Shown piece after piece: positions 17,542 to 25,812 of a DNA stretch of 64,000 nt. The notes under the pieces are model-generated. The model saw only the letters and a program-made list of their open reading frames with translations. It did not search any database and was not told where the DNA came from. Origin of the DNA: Patescibacteria group bacterium. Lineage in GTDB: Bacteria; Patescibacteriota; Minisyncoccia; Minisyncoccales; UBA5738. Every line of letters starts with the position of its first letter. Position 1 is the first letter of the stretch. The stretch covers positions 76,707 through 140,706 of the forward strand of contig JAKLGH010000002.1 in the NCBI GenBank assembly GCA_022710775.1. The letters are read 5' to 3'. The translations under genes and the position numbers were made by a program.

Positions 17542-19512
17542 ATGTTCAGTAAAAAAATTGTAGCCAGCATTTTGTGCTTGGCTTTAGCGGTTGCTTTAGT
17601 TCCCGGTGCCAGCCAGGCCGAGACAAGCGCTGCTGATCTTCAGAAACAGATCGCCGATTTGACGGCGCAATTGGCTGCTTTGCAGGCTCAATTGACCGGA
17701 ACAGGGACTGGAACTGCTACCACCGGAACCGCGGCTCCCGCTGCGTGCGCCGGCATCACTTTCTCCAGGAATTTAACAATGGGAGCCTCCGGCACCGATG
17801 TTAAATGTTTGCAAGCGTTGTTGAACCAGAGCGCCGATACCCAGGTTGCCGCTTCGGGCGTAGGATCGGCCGGATTTGAGACTATGACCTTTGGCGGATT
17901 GACCAAGGCCGCTGTCATCAAATTCCAGAACAAATATGCCGCCGAAGTTCTTACTCCGGTTGGTTTAACTATGGGAACGGGTTTTGTGGGCTCTTCAACA
18001 AGAGCTAAGTTGAACGCAATGTTAGCCGGAACAGGAACCGGAACAGGAACCGGAACAGGAACCGGAACCGGAACAGGCACCGGCACCGGAACAGGTACCG
18101 GCACCACCGGAACTTGCAATGGTGATGAAGGAACCATCGAAGTGAGCAGAAATTCTTCTCCCTCCAACCAAACGGTAAACGAAGGGGATGAAAAGGCTGC
18201 CATCTACGGTGTCAAGGTGAAAGCCGTTGATTCCGACATGAACGTTCAATCCATCAAGATTACGTTTGATGCGAAAGCCAGCGACTTCTTCTCCGACATT
18301 TACATCTTTGATGAAGATACCAAGTTGGCGACCAAGGAATTGGATTCCGACACCCTCACCGAGGATGACGGTCTCTATACCGTTTCTCTCACCGGCTTGA
18401 ACACCGTTGTGAAGAAAGGCGCTACCAAGGTTTTCACGGTTAAGGTTGACGTTGTTGACAGCATCAAATCCACCAAGGTGGATGTTGGCGCCGCCGGTAT
18501 CGATGTTTACGCCAGTGGCGTACGGGCGGTTGACGGCGTTTGCTTGAGCGATAACGTTACCGAGGACCAGGATGAAAGGACCGTTAAGGTCGAGGTTGCC
18601 GAAACTAACGAGGCCAAACTCACCTTCTCAAAGGATGAGAACACGCCCAAAGACCGCAACGTTGCGGTTGGTTCCACCGGCGATATGGACGATGTTACTT
18701 TGTATGTCTTCAAGGCGAAAGCCACCAAAGACAAGATTTCCTTCGAAGGTTTGGATGGAATTACCCTTACCGATGAAGGAGGCTTGGTGACCGACCTCGT
18801 CTTGTATGAAGGCAGCACCGAGTTGGCCAGCGGCAGCGAAGATGAAGGTGTTTGGAGCTTCGAGGATTTTGAGTCCGTGATCAGCGAGGATTCAACCAAG
18901 AGCTACACCATCAAAGCCAATCTTGAAAATGTTGAAGATGGCGCCACTTCCACAGTGAGCGTGGAATTGGACATCGACGATGCCAATGTTGACGCGGTTA
19001 ACACCGAAGATGACCAAGTTGATACCAACGACACTACGTTGACCAGCAACGAGATCTATGTCTATGAGACTGCTCCGGAATTCACTTTGTCTTCCGCCAA
19101 GCTCGAAGGCACCGATGCCAATGAAACCGTTGACAGCAAACTTGAGGGAACTTTCTCCATTAAGATCGAAGCGGTTGGCGGCGATATCTACATTCCGGCA
19201 ACGGATGATGATGCCTTCGACATTATCTACGTTAAGGCCGACGATACAGAGGATGATGTTACGACTGTTACTTCTTCCAAGCCCAGCGGTGTGACCGAGG
19301 TTACGGTTGATGCTGTTGACTACTATGTGGTCAGCGAAGACGATACCATTACCTTCACCGTTGACGGTATTGAAACAGGCGCTGACGGTACTTTCGACAT
19401 GCGCGTGTCCGGTATCACTTGGGGATACGGAGATAACGACGACGTCACTGAAGTCACGTCCACTTATATGAGCGATGACTTCAAGACCAACACAGTTACC
19501 GTTCAACAGTAG
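17542..19512 (+). CDS. Secreted cell-surface protein: signal peptide, coiled coil, peptidoglycan-binding domain, (GT)13 linker, acidic beta-rich repeats
   Basis: Signal peptide ends ...GASQA. PG_binding_1-like [16 protein letters not shown]...[17 protein letters not shown]. The long D/E/T/V-rich C-terminal region looks Ig-like. Confidence 0.7.
18028..18105 (+). repeat. Hexanucleotide microsatellite (GGAACN/GGCACC)x13 encoding (Gly-Thr)13
   Basis: Read directly: gga aca gga acc ... ggc acc, 13 units in frame. Confidence 0.95.
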
Positions 19513-22114: not shown

Positions 22115-23437
22115 ATGAATCTTTACGATCTGATCAAGAAAAAAAAGGCTAAAACCGCCATTATCGGAATGGGCTATGTTGGACTGCCTCACGCGCTGGA
22201 GATCGCCCGCGCGGGTATGCAGGTTTTTGGCATCGATATCCAGCAAAAAAGGACCAACCTGTTGAATGCGGGCAAATCGTATATCCAGGACGTCAAAGAC
22301 AGCGAGCTTCAAGAGATAATCGATGCCAGGAAATTCCAGGCTTTTGCGGACTTTTCAAAACTGGCCGAGGCCGACGTTATTATTATCTGCGTACCAACTC
22401 CGCTCGATAAATACAAAATTCCCGATGTGTCTTACATCGTTAATTCGGTCAATGAAATTAAAAAATATTTTCGGCCGGGCCAGCTGGTCATTCTGGAAAG
22501 CACCACTTATCCGGGTACGACCGACGAGGTGATTTTGCCGATTTTGCAGGAATCCGGTTTGAAGTGCGGCCAAGATTTTTACCTGGCGTTCGCTCCCGAA
22601 CGCATCGATCCGGGGAATACTATGCCGCTAAACGAGGTGCCAAAGGTTGTTGGCGGCATAACAAAGGAATGTACCGCTTTGGCTGTGTTGTTTTATTCCC
22701 AATTCTTAAAACACGTTCATCCGGTCTCAACCGCGCGCGCGGCGGAAATGACCAAGATCCTGGAAAACACCTATCGCCTCATCAATATTTCGGCGATCAA
22801 CGAACTGGCGATGCTGGCCGGAAAAATGGACATCGATATTTGGGAAGTGATCGAAGCGGCCAAAACCAAACCCTACGGCTTCCAAGCCTTTTATCCGTCG
22901 CCAAAAGTAGGCGGCCACTGTATTCCGCTGGATCCGTTCTATCTGTCTTGGAAAGCCAAAGAATATAATTTTTGGGCCCACTTTATCGAGCTGGCGGGTG
23001 AGATCAACGATCAGATGCCGCATTATACGGTAACGTCGGTGATAACGGCTTTAAACCGCCAAGGAAAGGCTCTTAAGGGTTCCAAAATCCTGGTTTGGGG
23101 AGTAGCTTACAAAAAAGACATCGATGATCCTCGCGAAGGCGCGGCTTACGACGTCATTCCTAATTTAATGAGAAAGGGCGCCCAAGTCGATTATTTTGAT
23201 TCCCTTATTCCGGAGTTCCGCATCCCGGCGGGCAATTTCATGTTGGGCAATTCGGATCCGATAATATTGAAATCCATCGAGAACGGCCTGGAAGCCGCTA
23301 AAAATTATGACGCGGTGATTATCCTTTGCGACAATTCCGGCTTTGACTATGTCGAGTTGGCCAAGAACGCCAGCCTTGTGATCGATACGCGGAACGCGAT
23401 CAAATCCCGCGAATTTAAAAACGTATACCGTTTTTAG
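22115..23437 (+). CDS. Nucleotide-sugar 6-dehydrogenase, WbpA/WecC-like (UDP-N-acetylhexosamine dehydrogenase)
   Basis: Rossmann IIGMGYVGLP and catalytic-Cys region VGGHCIPLDPFYL typical of the UDP-glucose/GDP-mannose dehydrogenase family. Operon context with WbpB/D/E/I-like genes. Confidence 0.8.
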   Translation: MNLYDLIKKKKAKTAIIGMGYVGLPHALEIARAGMQVFGIDIQQKRTNLLNAGKSYIQDVKDSELQEIIDARKFQAFADFSKLAEADVIIICVPTPLDKYKIPDVSYIVNSVNEIKKYFRPGQLVILESTTYPGTTDEVILPILQESGLKCGQDFYLAFAPERIDPGNTMPLNEVPKVVGGITKECTALAVLFYSQFLKHVHPVSTARAAEMTKILENTYRLINISAINELAMLAGKMDIDIWEVIEAAKTKPYGFQAFYPSPKVGGHCIPLDPFYLSWKAKEYNFWAHFIELAGEINDQMPHYTVTSVITALNRQGKALKGSKILVWGVAYKKDIDDPREGAAYDVIPNLMRKGAQVDYFDSLIPEFRIPAGNFMLGNSDPIILKSIENGLEAAKNYDAVIILCDNSGFDYVELAKNASLVIDTRNAIKSREFKNVYRF

Positions 23438-23499
23438 CAAGCAAGAACAGCAAGAAGAGCTGAAACAGCAAGAAAAGCGGGTAAGAGAGCACAGCAAAA
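23437..23499. repeat. Purine-rich 9-nt quasi-repeat tract (left arm of an inverted pair around a 4HB gene)
   Basis: Units are gcaagcaag aacagcaag aagagctga aacagcaag aaaagcggg ... . 23450..23472 pairs with the reverse complement of 23915..23936 (21 matches, 1 mismatch, 1 gap). Confidence 0.8.
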
Positions 23500-23522
23500 A
23501 AAATACAAAAAAATTTAAGAAG

Positions 23523-23876
23523 ATGATCAAGACGTTTAAAGATATCAGGGTATGGGAAAAGACGCATGGATTGGTATTGACGGTTTATAAAGTTACCGCT
23601 AAATTTCCCGAAGAAGAGAAATATTGCTTATCTAACCAATTGCGGAGAGCCAGTATATCGATACCTTCAAATATTGTTGAGGGTTTTAGAAGAAATACCA
23701 AAAAAGACCGAAATCATTTTTACGTCATCGCGAATGGCTCCCTGGAAGAAGTTAAATATCAATTACTATTGGCAAAAGATTTACGATATATCAACGATTT
23801 GAATTATGAAGAATTGGTCAAGCAAATGGATGAAGTCGGAAAAATGCTATCAGCCTGGATAAAATCCCAATCCTAG
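23523..23876 (+). CDS. Four-helix-bundle protein of the '23S rRNA intervening-sequence protein' family
   Basis: VWEKTHGLVLTVYKVTAKFPEEEKYCLSNQLRRASISIPSNIVEGFRR...IANGSLEEVKYQLLLAKDLRYI is the family signature as I know it. Confidence 0.85.
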   Translation: MIKTFKDIRVWEKTHGLVLTVYKVTAKFPEEEKYCLSNQLRRASISIPSNIVEGFRRNTKKDRNHFYVIANGSLEEVKYQLLLAKDLRYINDLNYEELVKQMDEVGKMLSAWIKSQS

Positions 23877-23914
23877 GTATTTTACTTTTCTCGCTATTCT
23901 AGCTAATTAGCTAA

Positions 23915-23948
23915 CTTGCTGTTCCAGCTTTCTTGCTTACTAGCTTAT
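23915..23948. repeat. Pyrimidine-rich tract (right arm of the inverted pair) plus dispersed repeat copy
   Basis: cttgctgttccagctttcttgc is the reverse complement of the left arm. 23926..23948 is 22/23 identical to 16481..16503. Confidence 0.8.
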
Positions 23949-23955
23949 CAAAATT

Positions 23956-24756
23956 ATGAATTACGCTATTATCGGTACCGGTTTTATTTTCCGCAAACAT
24001 CTCCAGGCCATTCGGGAAATCGGTGGCACGGTTGTTGACGTGTGCGATATTACCCACGGGCGGGGAGAGGAATGGAAAAAAATCGTCAAAAATCCGGAGG
24101 CGGATTGTGTTGTAATTCTCGCGCCCAATTATCTTCACTATCCGATCGCCTTGGCAGCCGCCGACGAGGGAAAATTAGTGTTGGTTGAAAAACCGCTGGC
24201 TTTAAAGTCGGAGCATGTCGAAGAACTGGCCAAAAGAAAAGATATCTTTATCGTCCAGCAGCTGCGGTATCATCCCGAGATCAAGCGGCTGGAAAAAGAG
24301 ATCGCAAAAAACAAACATCACGATATAAAAATGGATATCTCGGTTTATCGCGATGATCATTATTTCAACGGCTGGAAAGGCGATATTGAAAAATCCGGCG
24401 GTCCGCTTTTCACGTTGGGCGTTCATTATTTCGAATTATTGCTGCATTTGTTCGGTCCGGTGCTGGAGGCCAAGATGGATAAATTCGACGGAAAAACGGG
24501 TGTCGGGTTCGTCAAAGGTGCCAATTACGATTGCCAATGGCGCGTATCAGTGGGAGCCGCGATAAACGATCCTTGGAAGAGGGAATTCATTATCGACGGT
24601 GAAGCGATCAACCTTTCTTCAAAGGAAAATTTGGCCGAGGAAAACCTGCACCAGTTCGTTTACCGCGATTTAGAAATTAAGCAAGGAGTTGTTCCTAGTG
24701 ATGTTTTGCCGGTAATCAGGCTTATAGAAAAATTATATGGATCCCACCATTCATAA
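23956..24756 (+). CDS. Gfo/Idh/MocA-family oxidoreductase, WbpB-like (short form)
   Basis: N-terminal Rossmann [11 protein letters not shown], the VLVEKPLAL motif and operon context. Confidence 0.7.
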
Positions 24757-25375
24757 AACCGCTGAAGTTTCCTCCGAGGCCAAAATCGGCAACGGAACCA
24801 AGATCTGGCAGAACGCGCAAATTACTAAGGGCAGCGTTATTGGTGATAATTGCACCATTGGCCATAATTGCGCAATTTTTGGCGCCAAGCTTGGCAATGG
24901 GGTGAAACTTCAGGCCAATACCGATGTATGGGTTGGCGTGGTTCTGGAAGATTATGTTTTTGTTGGTCCGTCGGCGGTTTTTACCAACGACCCCAACCCG
25001 CGCGCCAAATATCCTAAGAAAGATTTTCCTCAATACGGGCAATGGCTGCCGACGCGGGTTATGGAGGGCGCGAGCATAGGCGCGAATGCCACGATTATCT
25101 GCGGCTCCGTGATCGGCAAATGGGCATTTGTTGGCGCGGGAGCGGTTGTGAAAGGCAATGTCCCTGACTACGCCGTGGTAGCAGGCGTACCGGCCAAACA
25201 GATCGGATGGATGTGCGAATGCGGAAGCAAGCTAGCATTTAAGCCAAGCAAGCCGGCTAAGCCTGTTAAGTTTATTAAGCAGGTTAAGTTAGAAATCAAA
25301 GAAACAGCAAAATGCTTGGTTTGCGGCAGGATTTACAATAAAAAAGACGGAAAAGTGGAGAAGATAAAGGAATGA
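24737..25375 (+). CDS. Left-handed beta-helix (hexapeptide) N-acetyltransferase, WbpD-like, with a repeat-derived insertion in its C-terminal Cys motif
   Basis: Hexapeptide repeats [32 protein letters not shown]... . The C-terminal CECG...CLVCG pair is split by [21 protein letters not shown], encoded by a 7 x 9-nt tract. Confidence 0.75.
25229..25291. repeat. Seven in-frame 9-nt TAAG-type quasi-repeats (left arm of an inverted pair around the second 4HB gene)
   Basis: Units are aagctagca tttaagcca agcaagccg gctaagcct gttaagttt attaagcag gttaagtta. 25264..25279 matches the reverse complement of 25789..25804 at 14/16. Confidence 0.8.
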
Positions 25376-25749
25376 CAAGTATGGGAAAAATTATTTCGTT
25401 TCATGATTTATCGGTTTGGCACAAGGCACATTGTTTGGTTTTGCAGGTTTATAAAGAGACAAAAGAATATCCCAAATCAGAGATTTACGGTTTAACAAGC
25501 CAAATCAGAAGAGCAGCTGTTTCCGTTGCTTCTAATATAGTTGAGGGATTTGAAAGAAAGAGCGCCAAAGATAGCCTCCATTTTTATAACATAGCTGACG
25601 GATCGCTCGAAGAGCTTCGATACCAATTACTATTAAGCAAAGATTTGTTTTATCTTGATGAATGTAAATATGCTGAATTGGTTAAACTGTCGGAAGAAGT
25701 GAGTAAAATGCTCAACGGCTGGATCAAGTCGAATCTCAAAAGTCAGTAA
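25372..25749 (+). CDS. Four-helix-bundle protein of the '23S rRNA intervening-sequence protein' family (second paralog)
   Basis: [53 protein letters not shown]...[26 protein letters not shown] overlap with the upstream gene. Confidence 0.85.
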
Positions 25750-25812
25750 ATTAAGTCTATTAAGTGTTTACTTAACAAGCTTAACTAACTTAAAAGACTT
25801 AACAAACTTCTT
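25750..25812. repeat. Intergenic spacer consisting exactly of seven 9-nt CTTAA-type quasi-repeats (right arm)
   Basis: Units are attaagtct attaagtgt ttacttaac aagcttaac taacttaaa agacttaac aaacttctt, immediately followed by the ATG at 25813. Confidence 0.85.

What the first reader, a model, noticed from the sequence alone, without database searches (positions are those of the whole stretch)
23437..23948. Four-helix-bundle ('rRNA intervening-sequence') gene no. 1 sits in the sugar operon as a cassette bracketed by inverted arms
The 117-aa 4HB gene (23523..23876) is inserted between the dehydrogenase and oxidoreductase genes. Its upstream spacer contains GCAAGAAGAGCTGAAACAGCAAG (23450..23472). 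Its downstream spacer contains the reverse complement, CTTGCTGTTCCAGCTTTCTTGC (23915..23936), with 21 matches, 1 mismatch and 1 gap. Both arms lie within ~63-80-nt 9-nt-periodic tracts. In 23S rRNA, genes of this family lie inside intervening sequences whose flanking inverted repeats form an RNase III-cleaved stem. The same ORF-in-a-stem-loop layout here, inside an mRNA operon, suggests an IVS-like insertion cassette that could be excised or processed from the polycistronic transcript. The family also includes the DGR accessory protein Avd, but no reverse transcriptase or template/variable repeat pair is present in this window.
Basis: partly seen in the sequence, partly recalled or inferred. 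Interest (0 to 1): 0.7.

Follow-up and report, generated by a model that had tools for sequence, protein, structure and literature searches.

The report
IVS-like four-helix-bundle cassette in sugar operon

Summary
The 117-aa PF05635/TIGR02436 gene (23523-23876) lies between a WbpA-like dehydrogenase gene and a WbpB-like oxidoreductase gene. AGCAAGAAN tracts lie upstream and their reverse complement lies downstream. In the whole 64-kb window, the downstream spacer is the best inverted match to the upstream spacer. Predicted RNA folding closes the ORF with a roughly 40-48-bp stem.

It is an insert. Twenty-three of 29 orthologous operons have a 0-18-nt junction at this site. Three relatives keep the gene there with matching arms. 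The relative with the second-closest WbpA keeps only an ORF-less hairpin there.

The bracket is a family hallmark. In 84 cassettes, 79 of them from unrelated genomes, 73% exceed the 95th percentile of mismatched-partner controls, as do 30 of 37 phage-contig copies. Units are usually 7-8 nt and differ between cassettes, but the two arms always match.

The published Coxiella 23S IVS has the same build (tandem heptamers, stem, mapped RNase III cleavage), so the IVS analogy is partly supported. RNA processing itself is untested, and arm mismatches show no G:U bias. The second 4HB gene in the window lacks the bracket. It is not a DGR Avd. I found no paper describing this general architecture.

The parts
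23438..23955 (+). Whole cassette: everything between the WbpA-like stop codon and the WbpB-like start codon.
   Evidence: Twenty-three of 29 orthologous operons have a 0-18-nt junction here. The MFE and centroid folds close this segment with a long-range stem, z = -2.85.
23438..23500 (+). 5' arm: about 6-7 degenerate 9-nt units, AGCAAGAAN. It starts directly after the WbpA stop codon.
   Evidence: TRF period 9 at 23440-23478. Lag-9 scan. Inverted-repeat pairs I3, I4, I6 and I7. The same unit type is kept in L006, L009 and L010.
23501..23522 (+). A-rich linker ending in TTTAAGAAG just before the ATG. It may hold a weak ribosome-binding region.
   Evidence: Sequence. A similar AG-rich AGAAGA precedes the Coxiella S23p ORF (PMC4990558). 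Function is inferred only.
23523..23876 (+). Four-helix-bundle protein gene no. 1 (117 aa; PF05635 / TIGR02436).
   Evidence: Closest solved structure is the pentameric XCC0516, 2GSC. Ka/Ks is 0.06 against the 94%-identical orthologue in L006.
23885..23947 (+). 3' arm: NTTCTYGCT / AGCTnnnn units, the reverse complement of the 5' arm. It ends 8 nt before the WbpB ATG.
   Evidence: TRF 23899-23947. It is the best inverted match to the 5' spacer in the whole window. About 39 closing pairs in the fold of 23430-23960 and 48 in a second fold with 100-nt flanks.
25372..25749 (+). Four-helix-bundle gene no. 2 (125 aa, or 122 aa from the ATG at 25381). Its start overlaps the acetyltransferase stop codon and it has no 5' arm.
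   Evidence: No closing stem, z = 0.05, 0 closing pairs. Absent from the relatives L006 and L009.
25750..25812 (+). 3' spacer of gene no. 2: TTAAG x2 followed by RCTTAAnnn x4. It forms a local hairpin rather than a bracket.
   Evidence: TRF 25770-25809, period 9. Local hairpin in the fold. Member of direct-repeat family D1.
25241..25288 (+). In-frame 9-nt-periodic tract (TTAAG orientation) inside the acetyltransferase gene. It adds 18 aa relative to L009.
26161..26211 (+). In-frame CTTAA-type tract inside the DegT aminotransferase gene (8 extra aa).
26320..26380 (+). In-frame AGCAAGAA-type tract inside the DegT gene (about 24 extra aa). It is the best direct match in the window to the 5' arm of cassette 1.
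   Evidence: score 32.
27022..27076 (+). CTTAA-type tract that forms a 15-aa N-terminal extension of the UDP-GlcNAc 2-epimerase.
27779..27881 (+). In-frame ORF-less hairpin inside the epimerase gene: TTAAG x4 followed by CTTAA x6 (19 extra aa).
   Evidence: RNA fold -27.6 kcal/mol, z = -4.44.
35762..35846 (+). ORF-less TAAGC/GCTTA hairpin that fills an intergenic spacer. Its 3' half matches the arm found at the WbpA|WbpB junction of L093, sharing an identical 24-mer.
   Evidence: The fold is weak: -18.4 kcal/mol, z = -0.73.
13140..13207 (-). A further copy of the same 24-mer (1 mismatch), inside a 9-nt-periodic intergenic tract.
   Evidence: 0 matches expected by chance..

Best explanation
The segment 23438-23955 is one copy of a widespread insertion cassette. 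The cassette is a four-helix-bundle (PF05635, 'S23p/IVS protein', Avd-like) gene enclosed by two inverted arrays of short tandem repeats. It has the same build as the ORF-bearing intervening sequences of 23S rRNA, but here it sits in an intercistronic junction of a UDP-2,3-diacetamido-sugar (wbpA/B/D/E/I-like) operon of a Candidatus Paceibacterota bacterium.

Shown:
- It is extra DNA at a junction that is normally tight.
- It has been inherited at this site by related lineages.
- The protein is under strong purifying selection.
- The two arms stay complementary although their unit sequence and copy number drift.

Inferred:
- The cassette has no promoter or terminator of its own and is read as part of the operon transcript.
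- In that RNA the arms pair into a roughly 40-48-bp imperfect duplex that loops out the ORF.
- RNase III cuts this duplex, as it does the homologous stem of the Coxiella IVS. That would split the message into wbpA, 4HB and wbpB-onward pieces, so an insertion at a gene junction (or in a surface helix of rRNA) does little harm.
- The tandem-repeat nature of the arms probably arises by slippage, and it keeps pairing possible in shifted registers after indels.
For: Identity and context:
- Family and operon assignments.
- Organism name.

Insert status:
- 23 of 29 orthologous WbpA|WbpB junctions are 0-18 nt.

Inheritance:
- The cassette is at the same junction in L006, L009 and L010 (4HB identity 94, 81 and 80%), with AGCRAGAAN upstream and its complement downstream, but with different repeat numbers.
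- L093 has the second-closest WbpA (88%, after L006 at 94%). It keeps only a 162-nt ORF-less hairpin there, -50.7 kcal/mol, z = -5.0.

Protein function:
- Ka/Ks is 0.06.

Stem:
- About 39 closing pairs in the MFE and centroid fold of 23430-23960, z = -2.85.
- With 100-nt or longer flanks, 48 closing pairs in the window and 49-55 in the orthologues.

Generality (84 cassettes: 79 unrelated genome loci plus the two window cassettes and three orthologues):
- Median inverted-match score is 34, against 15 for permuted partners and 16 for direct matches. 73% exceed the 95th percentile of the control and 45% exceed the 99th.
- 61 of 84 have at least 20 predicted closing pairs, against 26 of 84 when the 3' flank is swapped.
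- 30 of 37 phage-contig copies score above the same 95th-percentile threshold.

Tandem nature:
- 26 of 80 flanks on each side pass a strict periodicity test, against 10 of 320 control segments. Periods are mostly 7-8 nt.
- The two sides have the same period in 11 of 11 cases where both pass.

Complementarity is maintained:
- The orthologous cassette upstream of nadD in 11 Flavobacterium genomes keeps matched arms across protein clades that are only 67-77% identical. One clade has switched both arms to another unit.
- Synonymous sites between the window and L009 are saturated (pS 0.88), yet the arms persist.

Dependence on host transcription:
- 59 of 80 cassettes lie between co-directional genes on their own strand, and 2 lie antisense to both neighbours.
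- Promoter-like and terminator-like sites in the region are not above chance.

Precedent:
- The Coxiella IVS has an S23p ORF preceded by 3-4 tandem GACAGAT units whose number varies between strains. RNase III excision is shown experimentally and the 5' cut is mapped at the first repeat (PMC4990558).
Against: - There are no transcript data, and no RNase III gene could be checked. None is in the 64-kb window by signature motif.
- Arm mismatches are not biased toward G:U-compatible changes in the sense strand: 65 sense, 73 antisense, 169 transversions.
- Sense and antisense duplexes are equally stable: the sense duplex is the more stable in 43 cassettes and the antisense duplex in 40. Complementarity could therefore be kept at the DNA level.
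- 4HB gene no. 2 in the same operon has no bracket.
- About a quarter of family members score at background.
- Tracts of the same kind occur alone, and in frame inside coding sequence, where cleavage would destroy the mRNA.
- In Coxiella the authors conclude that the protein is probably not made, whereas here it is clearly under selection.
Confidence: 0.5

Rival explanations
1. The cassette is a DNA-level mobile element and the arms are its terminal inverted repeats. On this view it resembles a foldback or MITE-like element carrying a cargo gene, with ORF-less derivatives. The arms would be used in copying or recombination, and any RNA stem would be incidental.
For: - The distribution is sporadic against many empty orthologous sites.
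- ORF-less hairpins occur at the same junction (L093, L146) and elsewhere.
- An identical 24-mer of arm sequence lies at two unrelated window sites and at the L093 junction, where 0 matches are expected by chance.
- Copies occur in phage contigs and, by published report, inside cas operons (PMC3936711).
- There is no RNA-specific wobble signal.
Against: - Arm units differ between cassettes of one genome: the window's two cassettes, and L020 against L033 from one MAG. No single sequence-specific transposase can serve them all.
- No target-site duplication is visible at the junctions.
- No transposase or RT was found among the 20 window proteins scanned.
- The cassette is stably inherited at one site across a genus.
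- The strong co-orientation with host genes, 59 against 2, is not expected for a symmetric DNA element.
Confidence: 0.25
2. The repeat arrays are binding sites for the cassette's own pentameric, positively charged 4HB protein, much as the TRAP ring binds spaced triplets in RNA. On this view the arrays give autoregulation, or control of processing or translation of the neighbouring genes.
For: - Homologues are pentamers: 2GSC and 2RLD were each deposited with 5 chains.
- The related Avd is a pentameric, positively charged barrel that binds a defined RNA stem-loop (bioRxiv 10.1101/2023.10.23.563531).
- Arrays usually hold about 4-7 units.
- A recurrent T[AT]AG-type motif has fixed polarity. It appears at least three times in the 5' arm in 31 of 79 loci, and in the reverse complement of the 3' arm in 29 of 79, against 0.8% of background segments.
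- Each cassette has its own unit type.
Against: - Proteins that are about 50% identical sit next to very different units.
- No covariation between protein and unit was tested.
- The window's own arm 1 (CAAG, not TAAG) departs from the common motif.
- There is no binding data for any stand-alone family member.
Confidence: 0.15
3. The match is a by-product of low-complexity spacers. On this view this genome simply fills spacers with 9-nt-periodic tracts, and two of them happen to face each other around a small gene.
For: Similar tracts occur in other spacers (10280-10320, about 16470-16515, 13143-13207, 35762-35846) and inside genes.
Against: - The downstream spacer is the single best inverted match in the window.
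- The same bracket is found around relatives in other phyla and in phage contigs, far above the permuted-partner and swapped-flank controls.
- Orthologues keep it.
Confidence: 0.03
4. The gene is a remnant or accessory gene (Avd) of a diversity-generating retroelement.
For: Weak matches to bAvd (PF22296, 53 bits) and to the Avd equivalog model.
Against: - The score of 62.8 is below the Avd equivalog cut-off of 80.
- There is no RT among the scanned proteins and no TR/VR-like repeat.
- Armless relatives that were checked also lack an adjacent RT.
Confidence: 0.03

Closest known systems
ORF-bearing intervening sequences of 23S rRNA (Leptospira, Coxiella burnetii, Haemophilus; 'S23p' ORF)
   Same: - The protein family is the same (PF05635).
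- The ORF is enclosed by inverted flanks that form a stem.
- In Coxiella the 5' flank is a tandem array of heptamers whose copy number varies between strains, and RNase III cuts in it (PMC4990558).
- The element has been regarded as selfish and horizontally spread.
   Different: - The host here is an mRNA operon junction, not an rRNA helix.
- The repeat unit is 9 nt here, against the 7-8 nt that is usual in the family.
- The protein is under strong purifying selection here, while the Coxiella ORF is decaying and probably untranslated.
- Processing is unproven here.
ORF-less IVSs of enterobacterial, Campylobacter and rhizobial 23S rRNA
   Same: They are short stem-loops removed by RNase III. 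They are comparable to the ORF-less hairpins at the L093 junction, at window 35762-35846 and at 27779-27881.
   Different: The IVSs lie in rRNA. The window's copies lie in spacers and even in frame inside protein-coding genes, where they appear to be translated.
DGR accessory protein Avd
   Same: It is a homologous four-helix bundle that forms a pentameric basic barrel and binds structured RNA.
   Different: There is no RT and no TR/VR pair here, the score is below the Avd equivalog cut-off, and the flanking inverted repeat arrays are not a described DGR feature.
REP/REPIN elements and their RAYT genes
   Same: A single-copy gene is flanked by inverted copies of a short repeat that also occurs as gene-less hairpins elsewhere in the genome. 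This is an analogy recalled from general knowledge and was not tested here.
   Different: RAYT is a HUH/Y1 transposase with a known DNA-cleaving mechanism, whereas the 4HB protein has no catalytic fold. REPs are one sequence family per genome, whereas here every cassette has its own unit.
Rickettsia palindromic elements (RPEs) and cyanobacterial STRR heptamer repeats
   Same: RPEs are palindromic repeats tolerated in frame inside genes. STRRs are tandem heptamers in intergenic regions. Both comparisons come from memory and are leads only.
   Different: Neither is known to me to bracket a conserved gene family. I could not test a link between STRR repeats and 4HB genes. Some census arms (L043, L049) resemble STRR units.

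Membership tests
ORF-bearing rRNA intervening sequence (IVS) element | Encodes a PF05635 / TIGR02436 four-helix-bundle protein. | tested here: met
   PF05635 at 135.2 bits (cut-off 33.8) and TIGR02436 at 127.9 bits (cut-off 24).
ORF-bearing rRNA intervening sequence (IVS) element | The ORF is enclosed by inverted flanks that pair into a long stem. | tested here: met
   Arms verified. Closing stem present in the MFE and the centroid fold. 48 closing pairs, and 49-55 in the orthologues.
ORF-bearing rRNA intervening sequence (IVS) element | The flank next to the ORF is made of short tandem repeats of variable number (Coxiella type). | tested here: met
   Period-9 tract at 23440-23478. Repeat number differs among the window, L006, L009 and L010. 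The Coxiella description is in PMC4990558.
ORF-bearing rRNA intervening sequence (IVS) element | Inserted in a helix of a 23S (or 16S) rRNA gene. | tested here: not met
   It lies between two protein-coding genes. The window has no Rfam match at all.
ORF-bearing rRNA intervening sequence (IVS) element | Excised from the primary transcript by RNase III without re-ligation. | not testable with these tools
   This needs transcript end mapping or an in-vitro cleavage assay. No rnc signature motif is present in the window.
DGR accessory protein Avd | Scores above the Avd equivalog cut-off (NF033474). | tested here: not met
   62.8 bits against a cut-off of 80. Gene no. 2 scores 49.7 bits.
DGR accessory protein Avd | Adjacent reverse transcriptase gene. 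| tested here: not met
   No RT domain in any of the 20 window proteins scanned, including all operon neighbours. Smaller ORFs elsewhere in the window were not scanned.
DGR accessory protein Avd | Template/variable repeat pair. | tested here: not met
   The whole-window direct-repeat search finds only the 9-nt-tract family, a 53-nt tandem repeat and one 96-nt paralogous segment with mixed mismatch types.
MITE / foldback-type DNA transposon | Terminal inverted repeats. | tested here: met
MITE / foldback-type DNA transposon | Target-site duplication at the insert boundaries. | tested here: not met
   The left boundary ...CCGTTTTTAG| and the right boundary |...TCAAAATTATG share no direct repeat. 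The same is true of L006, L009, L010 and L093 compared with empty sites. This was checked by inspection only.
MITE / foldback-type DNA transposon | Several near-identical copies in one genome. | tested here: inconclusive
   For the TAAG-type arm, a 24-mer occurs twice in the window and again in L093. For the arms of cassette 1, only degenerate tracts occur elsewhere. Only 64 kb of the genome was available.
REPIN / RAYT system | The flanked gene encodes a HUH/Y1 (IS200/IS605-like) transposase. | tested here: not met
   The gene encodes a 117-aa four-helix bundle.

The most novel reading that the evidence does not exclude
PF05635 genes, their inverted tandem-repeat arms and the ORF-less hairpins derived from them could form one pan-bacterial and phage-borne class of mobile 'IVS-like' elements. 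These elements would colonise places where a break in the RNA is harmless, namely rRNA surface helices and operon junctions. In this reading the Avd-like pentamer recognises its own repeat array and either governs RNase III processing or promotes copying of the element. In this Paceibacterota lineage a 9-nt unit would additionally have let the arms spread in frame into enzyme genes.
Probability: 0.2. Interest if true: 0.85.

Novelty: new variant of a known kind. Interest (0 to 1): 0.62.

Why it matters
The function of the ORF found in rRNA intervening sequences has been open since the early 1990s. The family is large: 21,068 clusters at 50% identity match the window protein.

If most members, in many phyla and in phages, carry the same stem-forming tandem-repeat bracket whether they sit in rRNA or between ordinary genes, then three things follow:
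- The IVS is one special case of a general cassette.
- The bracket, not the rRNA context, is the conserved functional partner of the protein.
- The question becomes testable in tractable hosts, for example the cassette upstream of nadD in Flavobacterium. The tests are RNase III dependence, binding of the protein to its own arms, and the effect on neighbouring gene expression.

It also matters practically. These repeats break assemblies, mimic repeat arrays near cas genes, and inflate proteins with low-complexity inserts.

Tried and rejected
- **Wobble test for RNA-level selection.** Sense-strand G:U-compatible mismatches numbered 65 against 73 antisense. The sense duplex was the more stable in 43 cassettes and the antisense duplex in 40. 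This gave no signal.
- **Raw duplex energies against random genomic positions.** These were confounded by base composition. I replaced them with permuted-partner and swapped-flank controls.
- **An apparent compensatory change between the window and L006.** AGCTGAAAC/GTTCCAGCT against AGCTAGAAC/GTTCTAGCT looked compensatory. I dropped it because the 3' units compared are not positional orthologues; the window also carries TTCTAGCT.
- **Distances from the outermost predicted pair to the neighbouring stop and start codons.** The MFE stems ran into the flanking coding sequence, so the numbers are not meaningful.
- **Rfam.** Nothing in the window at gathering thresholds. Nothing at E <= 0.1 in L006, L009, L010, L093 or L146, including the GC-rich extra inserts.
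- **PADLOC.** No defence-system match.
- **Are armless family members DGR Avd genes?** I found no RT next to those checked. They sit in housekeeping or BREX contexts.
- **Literature.** Seven full-text searches found the Coxiella IVS work, a report of these genes inside cas operons, and CPR rRNA insertions. None describes the inverted tandem-repeat bracket as a family feature. Ralph & McClelland 1993 is not held.
- **RNase III gene.** No signature motif in the window.
Full report
**What is at the coordinates**

The window comes from a Candidatus Paceibacterota (CPR) bacterium. The identical protein is named that way in NCBI and occurs on contigs of several metagenomes.

Positions 22115-28195 encode, on the + strand, a pathway resembling WbpA/B/D/E/I:
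- a UDP-sugar 6-dehydrogenase (22115-23437)
- a GFO/IDH/MocA oxidoreductase (23956-24756)
- a hexapeptide acetyltransferase (24737-25375)
- a DegT aminotransferase (25813-27027)
- a UDP-GlcNAc 2-epimerase (27011-28195)

Two PF05635/TIGR02436 four-helix-bundle (4HB) genes interrupt this operon, at 23523-23876 and 25372-25749. They are the only two in the window.

**Checking the observation**

The upstream spacer is a degenerate array of AGCAAGAAN units. The downstream spacer holds the reverse complement.

I compared the upstream spacer with every 80-nt window of the 64 kb on both strands. Its best non-self match is the reverse complement of its own downstream spacer (score 37; 99th percentile 24).

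Folded as RNA, 23430-23960 closes the ORF with about 39 long-range pairs in both the MFE and the centroid structure (z = -2.85; 0 of 100 shuffles fold as well).

The stated tract lengths (63-80 nt) are a little generous. TRF and 49 nt, and the 3' tract has period 8-9.

**It is an insert, and an inherited one**

A metagenome scan with the dehydrogenase returned 80 loci. In the 29 loci that carry the oxidoreductase next door, 23 have a junction of 0-18 nt. All of 23438-23955 is therefore extra.

Relatives whose 4HB protein is 94, 81 and 80% identical (L006, L009, L010) carry the gene at the same junction. Their flanks are built from AGCRAGAAN and its complement, but with different numbers and orders of units. 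Each gives 49-55 predicted closing pairs.

The protein is under strong purifying selection. Ka/Ks is 0.06 between the window and L006, and synonymous sites are saturated against L009.

L093 has the second-closest WbpA (88%, after L006 at 94%) and sits inside the carrier group. It has no 4HB gene at the junction. Instead it has a 162-nt hairpin made of 9-nt TAAG-type units and their complement (-50.7 kcal/mol, z = -5.0). This is an ORF-less version of the cassette.

**The bracket is a hallmark of the gene family**

A scan of one genome per species with an alignment of 49 relatives gave 80 loci. They come from Saccharibacteria and other CPR groups, Flavobacterium, Verrucomicrobiota, Omnitrophota, Acidobacteriota, Bacillota and others.

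In most of them the ORF is preceded by a short-period tandem array and followed by the reverse complement of the same unit. Examples are GTAAGTn, TTAGTCC, GATTAAG, GTTCGTG and AGTAGCT.

The pooled set holds 84 cassettes: 79 of these genome loci, the two window cassettes and the three orthologues. The statistics are:
- The median local-alignment score of the upstream flank against the reverse-complemented downstream flank is 34. It is 15 for permuted partners and 16 for direct matches. 73% exceed the control's 95th percentile and 45% exceed its 99th.
- 61 of 84 have at least 20 predicted closing pairs, against 26 of 84 when the 3' flank is swapped for that of another locus.
- Strict periodicity is found in 26 of 80 flanks on each side, against 10 of 320 control segments. 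Periods are mostly 7-8 nt. The two sides have the same period in all 11 cases where both pass.
- 59 of 80 cassettes lie between genes on their own strand, and only 2 lie antisense to both neighbours. The spacers are about 50 nt on each side.
- The arms have a polarity. The 5' flank is C-poor and the 3' flank is G-poor. Stop codons face inward on both strands in most loci. T[AT]AG-type motifs recur in the 5' arm in 31 of 79 loci, against 0.8% of background segments.
- In phage and prophage contigs, 30 of 37 copies have the same bracket.
- The family is large: 21,068 clusters at 50% identity match the window protein at E <= 1e-3.

**Complementarity is maintained, not merely inherited**

In 11 Flavobacterium genomes the cassette sits at one orthologous site upstream of nadD. 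The proteins fall into three clades that are 67-77% identical to one another. All clades keep matched arms. One clade has replaced TTAGTCC with a TAATTAGT-type unit on both sides.

Two cassettes of one Uhrbacteria MAG (L020, L033) have different units, as do the two cassettes of the window. What is conserved is therefore the match between the two arms of one cassette, not any particular sequence.

That points to a secondary structure, or to concerted evolution of the two arms. It argues against recognition by one shared sequence-specific enzyme.

**Link to rRNA intervening sequences**

Warrier et al. 2016 (PMC4990558) describe the Coxiella 23S IVS as follows:
- The S23p ORF is preceded by an AG-rich stretch and three or four tandem GACAGAT heptamers, whose number varies between strains.
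- The flanks form a stem.
- RNase III excises the element, with the 5' cut mapped at the first repeat.

This is the same architecture as found here. Genes of this family have also been reported inside cas operons, for example between cmr3 and cmr2 (PMC3936711), and in CPR rRNA insertions (bioRxiv 10.1101/2024.02.27.582315).

I found no paper that describes the inverted tandem-repeat bracket as a general feature of the family. The library does not hold most subscription journals, so this absence is not proof.

**What I think it does**

Shown: the insert status, vertical retention, selection on the protein, the maintained complementarity and the co-orientation with host genes.

Inferred, in order:
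1. The cassette is transcribed with the operon.
2. The arms pair in the RNA.
3. RNase III cuts the duplex.

Such a cut would make an insertion at a gene junction nearly harmless, just as fragmentation of 23S rRNA is harmless.

Slippage would explain the tandem build and the varying copy number. A repetitive stem still pairs after indels.

**Evidence against the RNA part of this model**

- Mismatches between arms show no excess of G:U-compatible changes in the sense strand (65 against 73). Sense and antisense duplex energies do not differ.
- Gene no. 2 has no 5' arm and no closing stem.
- Single arms and a complete hairpin lie in frame inside genes (see below), where cleavage would be harmful.

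**Rival readings**

- The arms may be the terminal repeats of a DNA-level mobile element. In favour, an identical 24-mer of arm sequence occurs at two unrelated window sites and again at the L093 junction, where 0 matches are expected by chance. Against, there is no target-site duplication, no transposase, the units differ per cassette, and the location is stable.
- The arrays may bind the pentameric protein. In favour, 2GSC and 2RLD are pentamers, and Avd binds a defined RNA stem-loop. This has not been tested.
- Chance and the DGR reading are excluded.

**Beyond the finding**

In this lineage the units are 9 nt, a multiple of three, and tracts of both types also lie in frame inside the enzymes.

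Compared with L009 and L010:
- The acetyltransferase has 18 extra residues.
- DegT has 8 plus about 24 extra residues, at two sites that L006 also fills with longer versions.
- The epimerase has 15 extra residues at its N terminus and 19 internally.

The internal epimerase insert is a full hairpin, TTAAG x4 followed by CTTAA x6 (-27.6 kcal/mol, z = -4.4).

All these tracts are read in the frame that avoids TAA. This argues that they are translated rather than removed.

**Verdict**

The feature is best filed as a variant of the known IVS element that lives in mRNA operon junctions. The flanking architecture turns out to be a family-wide feature that seems little described.

Noticed in passing
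window 25241-25288, 26161-26211, 26320-26380, 27022-27076, 27779-27881: 9-nt-periodic tracts of the same types as the cassette arms lie in frame inside the acetyltransferase, DegT and epimerase genes. They add 8-24 residues each relative to L009 and L010. They are read in the frame that avoids stop codons. The tract at 27779-27881 is a complete hairpin (z = -4.4).
   Followed up: partly
window 35762-35846 and 13140-13207; L093 4324-4485: There are ORF-less hairpins or half-arrays of TAAG-type 9-nt units. The 24-mer AGCTTGATTAACTTAGTAAGCTTA occurs at 35816-35839 (+) and at 13140-13163 (-, 1 mismatch). It also forms the 3' arm of the ORF-less hairpin at the WbpA|WbpB junction of L093.
   Followed up: partly
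window 25372-25812: The second 4HB gene overlaps the acetyltransferase stop codon and has no 5' arm and no closing stem. Only a local TTAAG/CTTAA hairpin lies in its 3' spacer. The gene is absent from L006 and L009, so it is probably a younger or degraded insertion.
   Followed up: partly
window 10280-10320 and about 16470-16515: Single AGCGAGAAA-type tracts occur without a 4HB gene. One lies directly after the stop codon of gene 8990-10279. Its reverse complement lies directly before the start of gene 16572-17333. The latter is the second-best inverted match to the 5' arm of cassette 1 (score 35).
   Followed up: no
L010 6337-6563; L146 3176-3382: The 3' spacer of the L010 cassette carries an extra GC-rich, apparently structured insert of about 110 nt. 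The L146 WbpA|WbpB junction has inverted tandem arms around a GC-rich core with no 4HB gene. Neither has an Rfam match at E <= 0.1.
   Followed up: partly
L179 and L180 (viral contigs) 2995-3351: An armless 4HB ORF lies, in another reading frame, entirely inside an uninterrupted 1325-aa PglX-like methyltransferase ORF that is followed by PglZ (BREX). An open host frame across about 120 codons is unlikely by chance.
   Followed up: partly
L007 (end of contig) and L012 (end of contig): Both contigs stop inside the 3' arm or spacer of the cassette. Most close homologues of the protein come from contigs of 1-5 kb. The repeats probably break assemblies.
   Followed up: no
window 63011-63169: A 53-nt unit is repeated 2.5 times in tandem, and the first two copies are identical.
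   Followed up: no
window 820-915 and 1123-1218: A 96-nt direct repeat at 81% identity links the 3' end of ORF 23-937 to an unannotated ORF region (1086-1472). The mismatches are of mixed type, so this is not a DGR template/variable pair.
   Followed up: no
window 18026-18105: A CCGGAA hexamer is repeated about 13 times inside the 656-aa ORF 17542-19512, which has no Pfam match.
   Followed up: no
L046, L051, L060, L062, L066, L068, L069, L075, L087, L088, L092: In Flavobacterium the cassette occupies one conserved site directly upstream of nadD in 11 species. This offers a culturable and genetically tractable system for testing function.
   Followed up: partly
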